From assembly GCF_050320075.1 (NCBI RefSeq), contig NZ_CP190018.1: a DNA stretch of 64,000 nucleotides; one strand, given 5' to 3'. Below, piece after piece: positions 9,401 through 15,400 of the stretch; the first letter of the stretch is position 1; every line of letters begins with the position of its first letter. The position numbers were made by a program. Source of the DNA: Escherichia coli (lineage in GTDB: Bacteria; Pseudomonadota; Gammaproteobacteria; Enterobacterales; Enterobacteriaceae).

Positions 9401-12400
9401 GGTCGCACGGTCAGCCAGACCTTCATCTTCACGCATGTTGTCGAAGTTACGGGTCAGGGCGCCAGTCGGGTCGCCGATCATCGCATATTTGATTTTAGCG
9501 ATGGTTTCAGAGCTGCTGTGCCATGCTTTGTGGGTGAAGTGAGTATCGGTAGATACTGCGTATACGTCTACGCCCAGTTTCTGCAGTTCTTCGTAGTGGT
9601 CAGCAACGTCACCCAGTTCGGTCGGGCATACGAAAGTAAAGTCAGCCGGGTAGAAGAAGAAGACGCTCCAGCGGCCTTCGGTATCTTTTTCGGTGATTTC
9701 GATGAATTCGCCGTTTTTGAATGCCTGGTTTTTAAAAGGTTTAATTTTGGTGTTAATCAAGGACATCTATACTTCCTCCGTGTTTTCGATGAGATGTAAG
9801 GTAACCAATTTTTGCCGATTCGGCTAATGCGTTTCCATTATCAAATCGATAAGTTTTACCTTACAACCTTCGTAAGACAACTTTGTGAACTTTGCACCGC
9901 CAGCGGCGATAAAAAGTAAAATGGCCCCCTTTCCAGGTGACCGTGTAATCTGAACTACCCTTTGGTATCTTCAGCGCCTGCCTGCAGGCTGAGGTGTTGC
10001 CCTTACAAATGCAACAACGACATGGATTACAACACCCTCATAAACAAAGGGCAATCACCTGATCTAAGCTCTTACCTATGGCAGTGATAGGTTATGCCTT
10101 TTACCCGACTTTTGCACTGACTGAAAAGGACAAATTAATGTTAAAAAAGATACTTTTACTGGCTCTGCTTCCTGCAATCGCCTTCGCAGAGGAACTTCCT
10201 GCCCCAGTAAAAGCGATTGAAAAACAGGGCATTACAATCATCAAAACGTTCGATGCTCCCGGAGGAATGAAAGGTTATCTCGGAAAGTATCAGGATATGG
10301 GCGTCACCATCTACCTGACTCCAGATGGTAAGCACGCTATCTCCGGTTACATGTACAACGAGAAAGGTGAAAACCTGAGTAACACACTTATCGAAAAAGA
10401 AATTTACGCACCAGCCGGACGCGAAATGTGGCAACGGATGGAACAATCCCACTGGCTCCTCGACGGTAAAAAAGACGCGCCGGTCATTGTTTACGTCTTC
10501 GCCGATCCGTTCTGCCCATATTGTAAACAGTTCTGGCAGCAGGCGCGCCCGTGGGTAGATTCTGGCAAAGTGCAATTAAGAACATTGTTGGTTGGGGTTA
10601 TCAAGCCAGAAAGCCCGGCGACAGCAGCGGCAATTCTTGCCTCCAAAGATCCCGCAAAAACCTGGCAAGAATATGAAGCCTCTGGTGGCAAGCTTAAGCT
10701 AAACGTGCCTGCAAACGTAAGTACAGAGCAAATGAAAGTGTTAAGCGACAACGAGAAACTGATGGACGATCTGGGGGCAAATGTCACACCAGCTATCTAT
10801 TACATGAGTAAGGAAAATACTCTGCAACAGGCCGTGGGGTTGCCCGATCAGAAAACGCTTAATATCATTATGGGGAATAAATAAAATATAATTCATGGAT
10901 GGTTGAAATATATCCCTGCTTTTCAACCATCCTAAAAAAGCATGAATTGCTCGCTCTACCCTAAGTGGCTGTGCTATTTTAGAAAAACTTAATCCTGAGT
11001 TAAGCAAAAAAACATAATACAAATAAATACAACAGCAACATTATTGATCAAGTGAATGATTTATAGAAGAGATAATATAACGGAGTATGTTATGGCGAAT
11101 CTTTATGACCTAAAAAATTTGATCTGAATTTACTGGTCATATTTGAGTGTATTTATCAACATCTCAGCATTAGTAAAGCGGCAGAATCATTATATATAAC
11201 GCCCTCTGCTGTTAGTCAGTCGTTACAACGTTTACGTGCGCAATTTAATGACCCGTTATTCATTCGCTCAGGGAAAGGTATCGCGCCGACTACGACAGGG
11301 TTAAATCTGCATCATCATCTTGAGAAAAATCTCAGAGGCATTGAACAAACGATCAATATTGTTAATAAGTCTGAGCTAAAGAAAAATTTTATTATCTACG
11401 GTCCTCAGCTTATTTCTTGTACTAATAACAACATGCTAATCCGCTGTCTTAGACAAGATACTTCAATCGATATAGAATGCCATGACATACTGCTTTCAGC
11501 TGAAAATGCCGAAGAACTGTTGGTTCAACGCAAAACTGACCTGGCAATTACACTACAACCAGTAATTAGCCGCTCTGTCATCTGCATGCCGTTACATACT
11601 ATTCGCAATTCTCTTATATGTAGCAACAAACATCCTCGTATTACCGATACCAGTAACTATGAACAAATTATCGCCGAAGAATTCACCTTGTTGATATCTA
11701 AATCAGCAGGGATTGACGAAATTCAAATGGACATAGATGAACGTTTTATGAACCGTAAAGTTTCATTTCGCAGTTCTTCTTTGTTGACGATAATTAATAG
11801 TATTTCTGTTACTGACTTATTGGGCATTGTGCCCACCGAACTGTACGATTTACATCGTGATTTTTTGAAGTTACAAGAGATAAAACTGGAACAACCACTT
11901 CCTGCGGTTAAACTTTATATTTCCTATAACAAGGCTTCGTTGAACAACCTTGTCTTCTCACGATTCATAGATCGTTTAAATGATAGCTTCTGATTTATTA
12001 CCACTGATAAATGTTATATTACGCATCAATTGATTCATTGTGTAAATATAAAATAATGTGCTCTATCTTGCTTCGTTTACCCTATAATTAGCGGATTCAT
12101 CTCACGAGTCACCCCGTAACGTTCAGAGAGCGTTTTCAGATGTCTATTTATAAAATCCCGCTTCCACTGAATATTCTGGAAGCTGCAAAAGAACGTATTA
12201 CCTGGACACTTAACACCCTACCCCGCGTCTGCGTTTCTTTTTCGGGTGGTAAAGATTCCGGATTAATGCTGCATCTGACCGCCGAACTTGCCCGACAAAT
12301 GGGCAAAAAAATTTGTGTTTTATTTATCGACTGGGAAGCTCAGTTCTCTTGCACCATTAACTATGTTCAGTCCCTGCGCGAGTTGTACACCGATGTCATC

Positions 12401-15400
12401 GAAGAGTTTTACTGGGTTGCGCTCCCGCTTACAACGCAAAATTCCCTATCACAATACCAACCCGAATGGCAGTGCTGGGAACCTGATGTCGAATGGGTAC
12501 GTCAGCCTCCGCAAGATGCGATAACCGATCCTGACTTTTTCTCCTTTTACCAGCCAGGCATGACCTTCGAACAATTTGTGCGTGAGTTTGCCGAATGGTT
12601 TTCACAAAAACGTCCGGCGGCGATGATGATCGGCATCCGTGCGGATGAGTCCTACAACCGTTTTGTCGCCATCGCCAGTTTAAATAAACAACGTTTTGCC
12701 GATGATAAGCCCTGGACCACTGCCGCACCAGGCGGTCATAGCTGGTACATTTACCCCATCTACGACTGGAAAGTCGCTGATATCTGGACCTGGTATGCTA
12801 GCCATCAACGCCTCTGTAACCCACTGTATAATATAATGTATCAGGCAGGCGTTCCTCTACGTCATATGCGAATTTGCGAACCTTTTGGTCCGGAACAACG
12901 GCAAGGATTATGGCTCTATCACGTTATCGAACCGGATCGCTGGGCTGCTATGTGCGCACGAGTCAGCGGGGTAAAAAGTGGCGGCATTTACGCCGGACAT
13001 GACAACCATTTTTATGGTCATCGGAAAATCCTCAAGCCCGAACATTTAGACTGGCAGGAGTATGCATTATTGCTACTCAACAGCATGCCGGAGAAAACAG
13101 CTGAGCATTATCGCAATAAAATCGCCATTTATTTGCACTGGTATCAGAAAAAAGGCATCGAGGTTCCACAAACCCAGCAAGGGGACATTGGCGCGAAAGA
13201 TATCCCCTCCTGGCGGCGAATATGCAAAGTTTTACTCAATAACGATTACTGGTGTCGGGCATTATCATTTAGCCCGACCAAAGCGAAGAACTATCAGCGT
13301 TATAACGAACGAATAAAAGGAAAACGTCAGGAATGGGGGATACTATGCAACAACGATTAACGCAGGATTTAACCCAATTTCTCGCCAGCTTGCCGGAAGA
13401 CGATCGCATCAAAGCGATTAATGAAATCCGCATGGCGATCCATCAGGTTAGCCCCTTTCGAGAAGAGCCTGTGGATTGCGTTCTGTGGGTTAAAAACAGC
13501 CAACTTATGCCTAATGATTACAACCCAAACAACGTGGCACCACCCGAAAAAAAACTGCTGAAAAAATCCATTGAAATAGATGGTTTTACCCAACCCATTG
13601 TGGTCACGCATACGGATAAAAATGCCCTGGAAATCGTGGATGGTTTTCACCGCCATGAAATTGGTAAAGGCTCATCATCGTTAAAATTACGCTTAAAAGG
13701 TTATTTGCCGGTGACCTGTCTGGAAGGTACGCGTAATCAACGCATCGCCGCGACTATTCGTCATAATCGCGCCCGTGGACGTCACCAAATCACTGCCATG
13801 TCAGAAATCGTCCGTGAACTCAGCCAGTTGGGATGGGACGATAATAAAATTGGCAAAGAGCTGGGAATGGACAGCGACGAGGTGCTGCGCCTGAAACAAA
13901 TTAATGGCCTGCAAGAGTTGTTTGCCGACCGTCAATATTCCCGTGCCTGGACTGTCAAATAACTACAGCTGGCGCAGGCGTTCAGCTGCTGCCAGCAACG
14001 TCGATTCCTTCTTGGCAAAACAGAGACGAATCAGTTTATGGGGGAAGGGATCGGCGCAAAATACCGACAGCGGGATCGCCGCTACACCGTGCTCCCGCGT
14101 CAGCCACTGGCAAAACTCAACGTCATCCAGCGAAGAAACCGCGCTGTAATCCACCAGCAAAAAGTAAGTGCCTTCGCACGGTAAAATCTCCAGCCGACTC
14201 TCACTTAAGGCATTCACCAGAATATCGCGTTTTTGGCGATAAAAGTCCGGTAACGCAAGATAATGCTCAGGTTCTGCACGTAGCATATCCGCAAGTGCCA
14301 GCTGTGCCGGGGTATTCACCGAAAAGGTCAGATACTGGTGTACCTTGCGAATTTCAGCGCTGATGGGCGCTGGCGCAACGCAATAACCCACTTTCCAGCC
14401 GGTCATATGATAGGTCTTGCCAAATGAAGAAACTGCCACCGCCCGCTCACGCAGCTGCGGATGCGCCAGCACGCTGGCATGGCCCTGTTGTGAAAAGTTG
14501 ATGTGCTCGTAAACTTCATCGCTAATGACAAAAATCTCGTGCCCGGCAATTGCCTGCCACAAAGCGGCGAAATCAGCCTGCTGCCAGACAGTTGCACTGG
14601 GGTTATGCGGGGTGTTGAGGATCACCAGTCGGGTGCGCTCGCTTAACAATGCGGCAAATTCCTGCCAGTCCACGCGAAAATGCGGTGGTTGCAGTGCAAT
14701 ACGTTTCACTATTCCCCCCGAAAGCGCGATGGCGGGCGCGTAACTGTCATAGCTGGGATCAAAGCAGATCACTTCATCACCATTGCGCACCAATGCGGTA
14801 ATCGCTGCATATAACGCTTCCGTCGCCCCTGCCGTTACGGTGATATCGCTATCGGCATCCGGTTGATAGCCATACAGACGTTCCGTTTTCTGAGCAATCG
14901 CCTCGCGCAAGGCCTGCACGCCAGTCATAGGCGCGTATTGGTTTGCCCCCTGGGCAACGTGGTACGCCAGGCGCTCCTGCAAATAGCGCGGACCATCAAA
15001 ATCAGGAAAGCCTTGCGACAGGTTAATTGCCTGGTGTTGCTGCGCCAGCGCGCTCATCTGGGTGAAAATAGTGGTGCCAAGTTGTGGAAGTTTGCTTTGT
15101 GGAATCAGAGGGTTATTTGTCATTTTTATTGTACCTGACGAAGTTGCGTGTTGAAGGCACTATAACACGATGCTAGTATTTGGCAATCAAGACGTTTAGA
15201 TGTCTAAATAAAACAATAAGGACAACACAACATGCCTCACAATCCTATCCGCGTGGTCGTCGGCCCAGCTAACTACTTTTCACATCCAGGCAGTCTCAAT
15301 CACCTGCATGATTTTTTCACTGATGAACAGCTTTCTCGCGCGGTGTGGATCTACGGCGAACGCGCCATTGCAGCGGCGCAAACAAAACTTCCGCCAGCGT

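What the first reader, a model, noticed from the sequence alone, without database searches (positions are those of the whole stretch)
12140..13962. Overlapping PP-loop ATPase and ParB-like gene pair (ybdN-ybdM)
ybdN carries a PP-loop signature (SFSGGKDSG). ybdM carries a ParB-like motif (DGFHRH). The genes overlap by 28 bp, implying translational coupling. Pairing an ATP-pyrophosphatase fold with a ParB-like DNA-binding or nuclease fold is reminiscent of DNA-modification and defence modules, and I recall the pair as homologous to IbrA/IbrB. The function of this core-genome pair remains poorly defined as far as I know, and here it sits next to a pseudogenised regulator.
Basis: partly seen in the sequence, partly recalled or inferred. 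Interest (0 to 1): 0.3.

Follow-up and report, generated by a model that had tools for sequence, protein, structure and literature searches.

The report
Uncharacterised PP-loop/ParB-like gene pair ybdNM
This is the known E. coli core gene pair ybdN-ybdM, the chromosomal relative of the prophage regulators IbrA/IbrB. It is an obligate, very widespread two-protein module of unsolved biochemistry that most likely acts on DNA, and the name "PAPS reductase" given to ybdN is almost certainly wrong.

Summary
ybdN (12140-13360, 406 aa, SFSGGKDSG at aa 33-41) and ybdM (13333-13962, 209 aa, DGFHRH at aa 103-108) overlap by 28 bp. They are present in 5420 of 5426 complete E. coli genomes and are under strong purifying selection.

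YbdN has a PP-loop ATP-pyrophosphatase domain with the PAPS-reductase/CysD/FAD-synthase fold, followed by a helical DUF3440 domain that has no solved relative. The family has no conserved cysteine. It is therefore neither a CysH-type reductase nor a DndC-type Fe-S sulfur inserter.

YbdM has a ParB/sulfiredoxin-fold nucleotide-binding domain plus a helix-turn-helix. Its motifs are non-canonical (NPN and DGFHR in place of QPR and GERR) and it lacks a dimerisation domain.

In 168 loci from bacteria and viruses the two genes are almost always adjacent and usually overlap. Phage versions add a helicase, a GNAT-like protein, a cupin, or an unknown "WNSCE" domain.

The neighbouring regulator CitR is the published repressor of ybdNM. 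Its "pseudogene" state here is a single A missing from a poly-A run.

The most likely function is ParB-assisted, ATP-dependent covalent modification of DNA (confidence 0.4). A VirB/KorB-like transcription activator is the main rival. No paper in the searchable library characterises the biochemistry. The feature itself is already known, and interest is moderate.

The parts
11092..11993 (+). citR (ybdO), the LysR-type repressor of ybdNM. Here it is frameshifted by loss of one A in the poly-A run 11112-11117, and the rest of the ORF is intact.
   Evidence: RefSeq flags it 'frameshifted' in an identical genome. Translations. Strain 266917_2 is identical except for A7 and has an intact gene. NCBIfam CitR 4.9e-59 on the C-terminal ORF. 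CitR represses ybdNM by ChIP-exo and RNA-seq (PMC9068703).
11994..12139 (+). citR-ybdN intergenic region. It is AT-rich (about 36% GC) and is presumably the ybdNM promoter or operator region. It belongs to the highly divergent allele block.
   Evidence: Composition. Only 62-73% identity to K-12 here against 96-100% in the flanks. There is one promoter-like match at 12030-12057, no better than chance. The function of this region is inferred.
12140..13360 (+). ybdN: an IbrA-like PP-loop ATP pyrophosphatase domain plus a DUF3440 domain (406 aa).
   Evidence: AF2 model pLDDT 93.7. 6 aa and 65 nt differences from K-12.
12227..12841 (+). PP-loop / PAPS-reductase-fold domain of YbdN (aa 30-234). It includes the PP-loop SFSGGKDSG at 12236-12262.
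12848..13357 (+). DUF3440 domain of YbdN (aa 237-406). It is mostly helical and has no solved structural or sequence relative.
13333..13360 (+). The 28-bp overlap of the ybdN 3' end and the ybdM 5' end (16 bp if ybdM starts at ATG 13345).
   Evidence: Overlap or a gap of 20 nt or less occurs in 95 of 105 homologous loci when the most upstream start is used.
13333..13962 (+). ybdM: an IbrB-like protein (209 aa). It has an N-terminal helical hairpin (aa 1-40), a ParB/Srx-fold nucleotide-binding domain (aa about 46-150) and a helix-turn-helix (aa about 153-196). It has no C-terminal dimerisation domain.
13513..13548 (+). YbdM Box-I equivalent, NDYNPNNVAPPE (aa 61-72). The ParB 'QPR' is replaced by an invariant NPN.
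   Evidence: N61, N64, P65, N66 and E72 are invariant in 64 homologues. Alignment to Noc/ParB Box I.
13639..13656 (+). YbdM Box-II equivalent, DGFHRH (aa 103-108). It aligns with the ParB GERRxR motif, and the catalytic Glu is replaced by Phe.
   Evidence: D103, G104 and R107 are invariant and H106 is at least 90% conserved. Alignment to the GERR motif of Noc/ParB.
13759..13785 (+). YbdM motif RHNRARGRH (aa 143-151). It is the most conserved stretch of the family and is a probable phosphate-binding or catalytic helix.
   Evidence: R143, N145, R146, A147, G149 and H151 are invariant. The role is inferred by analogy with ParB Box III.
13963..15123 (-). ybdL (methionine aminotransferase). It is a convergent neighbour that abuts the ybdM stop codon with no spacer. 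It is context only and not part of the module.
   Evidence: ybdL-ybdM is listed as a convergent excludon (PMC12288877). No terminator-like site lies after ybdM on the + strand.

Best explanation
ybdN-ybdM is the chromosomal, CitR-repressed member of the IbrA/IbrB family. The family is an obligate two-protein module that most likely performs an ATP-dependent covalent modification (or processing) of DNA.

Shown:
- YbdM combines a ParB/sulfiredoxin-fold nucleotide-binding domain with an HTH.
- YbdN combines an intact PP-loop ATP-pyrophosphatase domain with a family-specific helical domain. Its nearest structural relatives (FAD synthase, CysD) transfer AMP onto an oxyanion.
- The two genes are practically never separated in bacteria or phages.

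Inferred:
- YbdM binds a nucleotide (more likely ATP-type than CTP) and DNA. It presents or activates DNA for YbdN, as ParB-like partners do for DpdA, for phage thymine dioxygenases, and possibly for DndC.
- YbdN adenylylates a group on the nucleic acid. That group is then replaced by, or coupled to, a nucleophile. In phage versions the nucleophile may be supplied by accessory GNAT-like, cupin or 'WNSCE' proteins, and access to DNA is helped by an SF2/SNF2 helicase.
- The chemistry is not obligatorily sulfur-based, because no cysteine is conserved.
- The gene-expression effects are downstream consequences. These are the IbrAB activation of prophage eib genes and the roughly 86 genes that change when CitR is deleted.

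In K-12 the module is silent under laboratory conditions because CitR represses it. In this window's strain the repressor may be broken.
For: Obligate pairing:
- A YbdM homologue is directly adjacent in 86 of 88 loci (79 bacterial-genome loci plus 9 phage-record loci) and in at least 70 of 80 viral loci.
- In the phage database, 224 records hold YbdN-like genes and 226 hold YbdM-like genes, with near-identical host breakdowns.
- Overlap or a gap of 20 nt or less in 95 of 105 loci.

Folds.

Enzyme-like conservation:
- The PP-loop, D64, E66, S171 and D214 are invariant.
- YbdM has 41% mean column identity across phyla.
- Its HTH residues are near-invariant. That fits a universal substrate better than lineage-specific operators.

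DNA context in phages:
- An SF2/SNF2 helicase is adjacent in 19 genome loci and 24 viral loci.
- The module lies beside recombination, replication or packaging genes.
- The YbdM region also matches ParB-domain DNA methyltransferase families (phrog_498 1e-10, PADLOC MTase_II).

Recurrent accessory small-molecule domains:
- GNAT-like protein.
- EctC-like cupin fusion and WNSCE fusion to the YbdM homologue.

Precedents for a ParB-like partner of a DNA-modifying enzyme:
- 5mYOX/ParB (PMC13229309).
- DpdA/DpdB and DndB/DndC (PMC12839542 and PMC10853773).

Purifying selection in E. coli: 6 aa changes for 65 nt changes in ybdN, and 2 for 21 in ybdM.
Against: - No modification has been demonstrated. 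As far as I know, E. coli K-12 DNA has no unexplained modified base, although ybdNM is repressed under the conditions in which that DNA was studied.
- No cognate nuclease or reader is conserved nearby, so there is no R-M-like logic.
- The only experimental phenotype in the family is transcriptional: IbrAB activates eib (my recollection of Sandt et al. 2002) and the annotation reads 'co-activator of prophage gene expression'.
- The nearest structural relatives of YbdN act on small molecules, not nucleic acids.
- The DUF3440 domain has no recognised DNA-binding fold.
- The E. coli pair lacks every accessory component seen in phages.
- I could not model the complex.
Confidence: 0.4

Rival explanations
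1. Transcription co-activator or anti-silencer. YbdM/IbrB would be a ParB-type nucleotide-switched DNA-binding protein, like VirB or KorB, that loads on DNA and activates or de-silences promoters (phage late genes, H-NS-silenced loci). YbdN/IbrA would be an ATP-using accessory subunit that loads, dimerises or regulates it. No DNA chemistry would be involved.
For: - The family name and its only phenotype: IbrA and IbrB together activate prophage eib genes (annotations; my recollection of Sandt et al. 2002).
- VirB is a ParB-like CTP-dependent anti-silencer (10.1101/2023.06.01.543266).
- In several phages the pair lies directly upstream of terminase or portal genes, where late activators sit.
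- Deleting CitR changes about 86 genes although CitR binds only at citR-ybdNM among the differentially expressed genes.
Against: - The ParB switch motifs are not kept. QPR is NPN, and the GERR catalytic Glu is Phe.
- There is no C-terminal dimerisation domain for clamp closure.
- The HTH is nearly invariant from Bacteroidota to Actinobacteria phages. That is unexpected if it reads lineage-specific promoters.
- An intact, invariant PP-loop active site and recurrent helicase, GNAT and cupin partners are hard to explain for a pure transcription factor.
Confidence: 0.25
2. Small-molecule or nucleotide pathway. YbdM would act as a ParB/Srx-fold kinase, like sulfiredoxin, SerK or SbnI. YbdN would act as an adenylyltransferase, like CysD or FAD synthase. 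Together they would make or consume a phosphorylated or adenylylated metabolite, possibly sulfur-linked, or a modified nucleotide used before replication. The HTH would serve only for autoregulation.
For: - The top structural neighbours of YbdN are FAD synthase and ATP sulfurylase CysD.
- The DGFHR motif is Srx-like (GCHR; my own knowledge).
- In K-12 delta-citR the whole CysB sulfate-assimilation regulon rises together with ybdNM.
- Accessory GNAT and cupin domains are typical of small-molecule enzymes.
Against: - The HTH is strongly conserved.
- SF2/SNF2 helicases are consistently linked, and the module lies among DNA-metabolism genes in phages.
- No conserved metabolic neighbour exists across 168 loci.
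- The neighbours in E. coli (ybdL, hcxA) are conserved only within Enterobacteriaceae.
- The cys-regulon change could be a strain or medium effect.
Confidence: 0.15
3. A stand-alone anti-phage defence, abortive-infection or toxin-antitoxin module (or, in phages, an anti-defence module) whose output is cell or phage arrest rather than a stable modification.
For: - In temperate Firmicutes phages the module lies between the lysis genes and the lysogeny genes, a typical accessory or moron site.
- In phage PhiR5_2 it lies beside antirepressors and a SocA/Panacea-domain gene.
- IbrAB-like copies are mobile: 1930 of 5426 E. coli genomes, up to 4 copies, 66 on plasmids.
- TASmania lists the Listeria pair as a TA candidate (PMC7020466).
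- YbdM over-expression costs 10% of growth rate (PMC8764527).
Against: - No PADLOC family is matched above noise.
- The TA call is guilt-by-association only.
- The ybdM knockout is viable; two cited studies used one.
- The pair is a vertically inherited, syntenic core locus in Enterobacteriaceae with its own LysR repressor, which is unlike defence islands.
- No effector domain (nuclease, TIR, pore) is present.
Confidence: 0.1
4. YbdN is what RefSeq calls it: a phosphoadenosine phosphosulfate reductase working in sulfate assimilation.
For: - The RefSeq product name.
- The Pfam PAPS_reduct domain hit.
- Foldseek top hits are CysH structures.
Against: - It scores 34 bits against the 254-bit cut-off of the PAPS reductase equivalog, and 33 against 154 for PRK02090.
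- No cysteine is conserved in the family, so the catalytic C-terminal Cys of CysH is absent.
- The C-terminal half is DUF3440.
- It is obligately linked to a ParB-like gene and widespread in phages.
- E. coli has a genuine cysH elsewhere (b2762).
Confidence: 0.02

Closest known systems
IbrA/IbrB ('immunoglobulin-binding regulator', co-activators of prophage eib gene expression; E. coli ECOR-9 island and many phages)
   Same: True homologues. YbdN is 58% identical and YbdM 57% identical to the annotated IbrA/IbrB of phage PhiR5_2. They share the domain architecture and the overlapping gene order. They share the PHROG families phrog_2302 and phrog_2159.
   Different: ybdNM is a fixed, syntenic chromosomal locus under a dedicated LysR repressor (5420 of 5426 genomes). 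ibrAB-like copies are accessory and mobile (1930 of 5426 genomes, multi-copy, some on plasmids). No activation phenotype has been shown for ybdNM, and the mechanism of IbrAB itself is unknown.
DndB-DndC of the DNA phosphorothioation system (and SspD, BrxP)
   Same: A ParB-superfamily protein with a DGxHR-type motif is paired with a PAPS-reductase-fold PP-loop ATP pyrophosphatase. There are weak direct hits to DndC (8e-5 and 2e-5) and BrxP (1e-4).
   Different: No DndA, DndD or DndE partners and no BREX partners are present. The DndC model scores 21.7 bits against a 290-bit cut-off. No Fe-S cysteine triad or cysteine dyad is conserved. A DUF3440 domain takes the place of the DndC C-terminal region.
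ParB-dependent phage thymine dioxygenases (5mYOX/ParB) and DpdA/DpdB
   Same: A DNA-modifying enzyme needs a cognate ParB-like partner encoded next to it (PMC13229309; Dpd summary in PMC12839542). These are phage-borne and often accompanied by helicases.
   Different: The catalytic partner here is a PP-loop enzyme, not a dioxygenase or a transglycosylase. YbdM keeps an HTH but lacks the C-terminal dimerisation domain, which is the reverse of the 5mYOX-associated ParBs.
CysD (ATP sulfurylase small subunit) and the eukaryotic FAD synthase PAPS-reductase-like domain
   Different: About 20% sequence identity. They act on small-molecule substrates, have no DUF3440 domain and no ParB partner, and their NCBIfam models are not matched at cut-off.
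VirB / KorB / Noc (ParB-fold CTP switches used for gene regulation or nucleoid occlusion)
   Different: The CTP-binding and hydrolysis motifs are changed (NPN, DGFHR). There is no C-terminal dimerisation domain. There is obligate linkage to a PP-loop enzyme.

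Membership tests
IbrA/IbrB family | Sequence homology of both proteins to IbrA and IbrB | tested here: met
   58% (YbdN) and 57% (YbdM) identity to the annotated IbrA/IbrB of phage PhiR5_2. tblastn 2e-71 for IbrB. NCBI names YbdM 'IbrB-like domain-containing protein'. The ECOR-9 prototype sequences themselves were not available.
IbrA/IbrB family | Two overlapping, co-oriented genes (PP-loop gene first, ParB-like gene second) | tested here: met
   28-bp overlap in the window. 16-bp overlap in PhiR5_2. The same arrangement is found family-wide.
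IbrA/IbrB family | Joint activation of prophage (eib) gene expression | not testable with these tools
   This needs genetics. The only indirect hint is the broad transcriptome change in K-12 delta-citR, where ybdNM is derepressed.
PP-loop ATP pyrophosphatase superfamily | SGGxDS PP-loop motif and the adenine-nucleotide alpha-hydrolase fold | tested here: met
PAPS reductase proper (CysH) | Score above the curated equivalog cut-offs | tested here: not met
   TIGR02057 34.1 bits against a cut-off of 254.2. PRK02090 33.3 against 154. TIGR00434 23.8 against 165.
PAPS reductase proper (CysH) | Conserved catalytic cysteine near the C-terminus (the ECGLH-type motif, from my own knowledge of the family) | tested here: not met
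   No cysteine is conserved above 80% in 74 homologues. The C-terminal half is DUF3440.
Dnd / Ssp DNA phosphorothioation | DndC/SspD-type enzyme with cysteines for a [4Fe-4S] cluster and for sulfur relay | tested here: not met
   The DndC model scores 21.7 bits against a cut-off of 290.4. The cysteine patterns at the semi-conserved positions are mosaic, and several members have at most one of them.
Dnd / Ssp DNA phosphorothioation | Co-located DndA/IscS, DndD and DndE genes (or SspA, SspB, SspC) | tested here: not met
   The window neighbours are citR, ybdL, hcxA and dsbG. Clustering of neighbours over 79 genome loci and 80 viral loci gives no such families.
BREX type 4 (BrxP) | BrxP PAPS-reductase protein together with the other BREX genes (PglZ and others) | tested here: not met
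   The PADLOC BrxP hit is 18.4 bits and covers aa 29-102 only. No BREX genes are in the neighbourhood.
ParB/sulfiredoxin (ParB/Srx) fold superfamily | ParB N-terminal domain fold with the Gly-x-x-Arg nucleotide-binding loop | tested here: met
Canonical ParB CTPase clamp (ParABS, Noc, KorB, VirB) | Box I QPR and Box II GERRxRA residues for CTP binding and hydrolysis | tested here: not met
   The aligned positions read NPN and DGFHR. The catalytic Glu position holds Phe or Tyr.
Canonical ParB CTPase clamp (ParABS, Noc, KorB, VirB) | C-terminal dimerisation domain, and a ParA partner or parS sites | tested here: not met
   The protein ends about 13 residues after the HTH region. No ParA gene is adjacent. 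parS-like sites were not searched for.
Dpd 7-deazaguanine DNA modification | DpdA (TGT-like transglycosylase) next to the ParB-like DpdB | tested here: not met
   No TGT-family gene is in the window neighbourhood or among the recurrent neighbours.
Type II toxin-antitoxin pair | A small toxin with a known toxin fold plus a labile antitoxin; deletion of the antitoxin is deleterious | tested here: inconclusive
   Neither protein matches a toxin family. The TASmania listing is guilt-by-association. A ybdM deletion is viable and slightly beneficial. However, the operon is repressed in K-12, so the test is weak.

The most novel reading that the evidence does not exclude
YbdN-YbdM and its roughly 1,700 protein-cluster relatives in bacteria and phages install a so-far undescribed, non-sulfur, ATP-dependent covalent modification on DNA. 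The PP-loop enzyme adenylylates a base or backbone group, which is then substituted, and a non-canonical ParB/Srx protein acts as the DNA-presenting subunit. E. coli carries this capacity as a cryptic, CitR/H-NS-silenced epigenetic switch. When derepressed, it rewires expression of prophage, flagellar and sulfur-assimilation genes.
Probability: 0.25. Interest if true: 0.8.

Novelty: already known. Interest (0 to 1): 0.4.

Why it matters
ybdN and ybdM are among the few E. coli core genes with a clear enzymatic signature and no known reaction. Their family is large: 1,679 clusters at 50% identity. It spans Proteobacteria, Firmicutes, Bacteroidota, Actinobacteria phages and cyanophages.

In metagenome studies the phage copies are at risk of being counted as 'cysH' sulfur-metabolism auxiliary genes, given their PAPS-reductase annotation. 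This analysis indicates that reading is wrong.

If the module modifies DNA, it would add a new chemistry to the list of ParB-assisted DNA modifications. It would also explain how IbrAB switches on prophage genes.

The analysis also gives a practical handle. CitR is the only known brake. Natural strains differ by one base in citR (A6 against A7) and otherwise have identical loci.

Tried and rejected
1. Literature. Eight full-text searches found no biochemical characterisation of YbdN/YbdM or IbrA/IbrB. They returned only annotations, the CitR regulation paper, one proteomics observation and one Keio screen hit. The first IbrA/IbrB search was wasted on 'iBRB' (blood-retinal barrier) papers.

2. 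Sequence search of both proteins against PDB chains gave nothing useful. A profile of the DUF3440 domain also found nothing significant. The best hit was a viral winged-helix protein at E = 0.19, which I do not count.

3. Defence-system membership. PADLOC gave only sub-threshold DndC, BrxP and MTase hits, so membership is rejected.

4. An Fe-S or persulfide sulfur-transfer mechanism. I tested whether the semi-conserved cysteines (alignment positions of A94, C246, C362 and C372) co-vary as a triad. They do not. This is rejected as a family-wide mechanism but not excluded for sub-clades.

5. Fusions of YbdN with YbdM (Rosetta stone). None was found among the long homologues. The extensions are unannotated, low-complexity or GNAT-like, or the result of an ABC-ATPase mis-join.

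6. Pfam, PHROG and PDB searches for the 'WNSCE' domain and for the c23 and c24 phage proteins gave no functional match.

7. The promoter and terminator scan of the locus gave nothing above shuffled expectation.

No tool for complex prediction was available, so the YbdN-YbdM interface was not modelled.

9. The two 'small ParB' ORFs annotated in Microcystis and Pseudoalteromonas phages turned out not to be ParB homologues. They are the WNSCE protein and a cupin.

Full report
**1. What is in the sequence**

The window is an E. coli chromosome segment with the gene order dsbG - citR(ybdO) - ybdN - ybdM - ybdL - hcxA - ybdD - cstA - ent. It is 100% identical over 3.2 kb to strain YZLc1-3.
- ORF 12140..13360 (+, 406 aa) is ybdN. 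ORF 13333..13962 (+, 209 aa) is ybdM.
- The PP-loop SFSGGKDSG is aa 33-41 of YbdN. DGFHRH is aa 103-108 of YbdM.
- The ORFs overlap by 28 bp.
- A second ATG at 13345 with a G-rich run upstream would give a 16-bp overlap, and Citrobacter homologues are mostly listed at 205 aa. Either way the genes overlap.

**2. Population genetics in E. coli**
- The pair is present in 5420 of 5426 complete genomes.
- Against K-12, ybdN has 65 nucleotide but only 6 amino-acid differences, and ybdM has 21 and 2. Both are under strong purifying selection.
- In Enterobacteriaceae (Citrobacter, Enterobacter, Kluyvera, Pseudocitrobacter and others) the citR-ybdN-ybdM-ybdL synteny is kept: 10-12 of 12 loci.
- A second, mobile paralogue of the IbrAB type (about 58% protein identity) is in 1930 of 5426 genomes, with up to four copies and 66 on plasmids.

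**3. The regulator next door**

CitR is not an incidental neighbour. In K-12 its ChIP-exo peak lies upstream of citR-ybdNM. Its deletion raises ybdN by 5.5 log2 and ybdM by 2.5 log2 (PMC9068703).

In the window, citR lacks one A of a poly-A run (A6 at 11112-11117). The downstream 295 codons remain open. Strain 266917_2 is identical over the whole 3.2 kb except that it has A7 and an intact CitR. The "pseudogene" is therefore either a very recent slip or a homopolymer sequencing error. If it is real, ybdNM should be derepressed in this strain.

In passing: citR and the citR-ybdN spacer exist as two deep alleles in E. coli. They share 78% nucleotide and 88% amino-acid identity. About 3555 genomes are of the K-12 type and about 1770 of the window type. 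The flanks are 96-100% identical.

**4. YbdN**
- Pfam finds PAPS_reduct (1.1e-14) and DUF3440 (2.9e-32).
- The curated PAPS-reductase, CysD, DndC and TilS models are all far below their cut-offs.
- An AlphaFold2 model built on 74 diverse homologues has pLDDT 93.7.
- The helical C-terminal DUF3440 domain has no structural or sequence relative in the PDB.
- Invariant residues are G37, K38, S40 (PP-loop), D64, E66, W119, S171, D214 and Y230.
- No cysteine is conserved. The four semi-conserved positions show mosaic patterns, and some phage members have at most one.

The conclusions are as follows. YbdN is an ATP-using PP-loop enzyme. It is not a CysH-type reductase, which needs a catalytic Cys. 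It is not a DndC/TtuA-type Fe-S sulfur inserter, at least family-wide. The RefSeq name "phosphoadenosine phosphosulfate reductase" is a domain-level over-annotation.

**5. YbdM**

An AlphaFold2 model built on 64 homologues has pLDDT 89. It shows three parts:
- an N-terminal helical hairpin (aa 1-40, found only in the proteobacterial and cyanophage clade);
- a ParB/Srx-fold domain;
- an HTH.

The family is unusually conserved, with 41% mean column identity across phyla. The blocks NxYNPNxVAPPE, DG(Y/F)TxP, VDGFHR, TIRHNRARGxH and GMxxDExLRLKQ are invariant or nearly so.

**6. An obligate pair, and its accessories**

Pairing:
- The exhaustive representative search finds 1,679 clusters (E <= 1e-3) of YbdN relatives.
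- In 79 loci from GTDB species genomes plus nine phage records, a YbdM homologue is directly adjacent in 86 of 88. Of the two exceptions, L062 is cut off at the contig end. For L063 (a second Bacteroides finegoldii locus) no YbdM homologue was found, and I did not look further.
- In 80 IMG/VR viral contigs it is adjacent in at least 70.
- In GenBank phages, 224 records have a YbdN-like gene and 226 a YbdM-like gene, with near-identical host breakdowns.
- Junctions overlap or are 20 nt or less apart in 95 of 105 N-then-M loci.

Additional conserved partners define sub-architectures:
- (a) An SF2/SNF2-like helicase sits just upstream in Firmicutes, Alphaproteobacteria, Listeria and many phages (19 genome loci, 24 viral loci). 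It is sometimes preceded by two unknown proteins, phrog_27058 and phrog_16123.
- (b) A GNAT-like protein of about 135 aa is found in Bacteroidota (15 loci). It lies between the two genes in a Sphingomonas locus and is fused to a YbdN homologue in P0296. Five of its six weak PDB profile hits are GNATs, and the RGxG motif is present in two members.
- (c) A "W(P/E)NS(C/A)E...AW(I/L)G(H/Q)A" domain of about 135 aa has no match in Pfam, PHROGs or the PDB. It is a separate ORF in 26 viral loci. It is fused to the C-terminus of the YbdM homologue in about 20 more and in L031.
- (d) An EctC-like cupin is fused or adjacent to the YbdM homologue.

The enterobacterial ybdNM and ibrAB have none of these.

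In temperate Firmicutes phages the module lies between the lysis genes and the lysogeny genes. In several other phages it lies directly upstream of terminase or portal genes, or among recombination genes.

**7. Interpretation**

Five facts fit an enzyme complex acting on a universal polymer substrate better than a lineage-specific transcription factor:
- the catalytic site of YbdN is invariant;
- YbdM is conserved like an enzyme;
- the HTH is near-invariant across hosts whose promoters differ;
- the module is linked to helicases;
- it is recurrently linked to small transferase-type domains.

Experimentally supported precedents now exist for ParB-like proteins as obligatory partners of DNA-modifying enzymes. 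These are phage thymine dioxygenases (PMC13229309), DpdA/DpdB, and, more arguably, DndB/DndC. ParB-domain DNA methyltransferase families also match YbdM.

I therefore rank [quoted passage not shown] first, at 0.4. The steps "YbdM binds NTP and DNA", "YbdN adenylylates a nucleic-acid group" and "expression changes are secondary" are all inferences.

The main rival, at 0.25, is a VirB/KorB-like nucleotide-switched activator or anti-silencer. It rests on the only phenotype known for the family. That phenotype is that IbrA plus IbrB activate prophage eib genes, which I take from annotations and from my recollection of Sandt, Hopper and Hill 2002. The rival also draws on the position of the module before late genes in some phages. 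The altered switch motifs, the missing dimerisation domain and the intact enzyme partner weigh against it.

A small-molecule pathway of kinase plus adenylyltransferase type gets 0.15. It is suggested by the nearest folds (CysD and FAD synthase for YbdN; Srx, SerK and SbnI for YbdM). A second hint is that the whole CysB regulon rises with ybdNM in delta-citR.

A defence, abortive-infection or toxin-antitoxin role gets 0.1. A genuine PAPS reductase gets 0.02.

**8. Comparison with known systems and novelty**

The pair is a member of the IbrA/IbrB family: homology and gene arrangement were tested and met, and the phenotype is not testable here. It is not a member of Dnd/Ssp, BREX type 4, Dpd, canonical ParABS-type CTPase clamps, or CysH. 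In each case a defining feature was tested and not met (see the membership table).

As a sequence feature it is already known. It is annotated in K-12, its IbrAB homology was noted long ago, and its regulation by CitR was published. What remains open is the reaction it catalyses. In the accessible literature YbdM is still called "completely uncharacterized" (PMC8764527).

Other phenotypes are minor:
- YbdM protein rises 29-fold with a blaCTX-M-15 plasmid.
- Over-expression of YbdM costs 10% of growth rate.
- A Keio ybdM mutant appears in a peptide-resistance screen.

**9. Verdict**

The feature is known but its function is unsolved. The work here adds five things:
- a family-wide demonstration of obligate pairing;
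- the exclusion of the reductase and Dnd-type chemistries;
- a catalogue of accessory partners that points towards DNA-directed group-transfer chemistry;
- the link to the repressor;
- a cheap, decisive experiment: derepress or over-express the pair and look for a new DNA species.

Interest is 0.4.

Noticed in passing
window 11000-12200 (citR and the citR-ybdN spacer): There are two deeply divergent alleles of citR and its downstream spacer within E. coli. They share 78% nucleotide and 88% amino-acid identity. About 3555 genomes are K-12-type and about 1770 are window-type. The flanking genes are 96-100% identical, and divergence fades inside the first 200 bp or so of ybdN. The origin (old balanced polymorphism or import) is unexplained.
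   Followed up: partly
window 11112-11117: The citR frameshift is one A missing from a poly-A run (A6 against A7 in otherwise identical strain 266917_2). It could be a real slip mutation that derepresses ybdNM, or a homopolymer sequencing error.
   Followed up: yes
L008:5608-6003, L009:5674-6096, L011:5533-5946; fused in L031:5848-7035 and in about 20 viral loci (for example L113-L131): A conserved domain of about 135 aa, 'W(P/E)NS(C/A)E...N..AW(I/L)G(H/Q)A', has no Pfam, PHROG or PDB match. It is the commonest third component of the viral YbdM/YbdN modules and is often fused to the C-terminus of the YbdM homologue. It is absent from E. coli.
   Followed up: partly
L049:7588-7980 and 14 other Bacteroidota loci; L044:9200-9626; C-terminus of P0296: A small GNAT-like protein is encoded immediately upstream of (or between, or fused to) the pair. 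The Bacteroidota copies lack the RGxG acetyl-CoA motif, which the Sphingomonas and P0296 copies keep.
   Followed up: partly
L051:1125-2225; L011:4622-5014: An EctC-like cupin domain is fused to, or encoded next to, the YbdM homologue. This explains the odd GenBank annotation 'ectoine synthase/ParB multidomain protein' in several phages.
   Followed up: no
L141, L143, L145, L149, L157, L159, L160 (viral contigs): Short ORFs of 84-96 aa that hit the YbdN profile lie next to the WNSCE ORF, in addition to a full-length YbdN homologue. They may be a split-off fragment of the DUF3440 region.
   Followed up: no
PMC9068703 Table 1 (K-12 delta-citR RNA-seq): Together with ybdN (+5.5 log2) and ybdM (+2.5), the entire sulfate-assimilation regulon (cysDNC, cysJIH, cysAWU, tcyP, yeeE) is up 1.7-3.2 log2. 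The flagellar regulon and citCDEF are also up. CitR binding with differentially expressed genes was seen only at citR-ybdNM, so these changes may be effects of YbdNM.
   Followed up: no
window 13962/13963: The ybdM stop codon abuts the stop codon of the convergent ybdL with no spacer and no terminator-like structure on the + strand. ybdL-ybdM is listed as a convergent 'excludon' in K-12 RNA-seq (PMC12288877).
   Followed up: partly
E. coli genomes outside the window (for example NZ_CP060083.1 2575326-2577139): An accessory IbrAB-type paralogue of the pair occurs in 1930 of 5426 complete E. coli genomes, with up to 4 copies per genome and 66 copies on plasmids. In phage PhiR5_2 it lies beside antirepressor genes and a SocA/Panacea-domain gene.
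   Followed up: partly
L005:2834-3229 and L036:2223-3374 (and homologues in L010, L038, L040, L043, L047): Two further unknown proteins precede the helicase in Firmicutes-type modules. One is about 125 aa (phrog_27058). The other is about 385 aa and has an N-terminal Cys-rich ribbon and repeated 'LPxLxGTEKQVxWA' motifs (phrog_16123).
   Followed up: no
Listeria (L068; lmo1309/lmo1310 in PMC7020466): The same pair, here with the SNF2-like helicase upstream in L. ilorinensis, is a core-genome locus in Listeria monocytogenes too. It has been listed as a toxin-antitoxin candidate purely by association.
   Followed up: no
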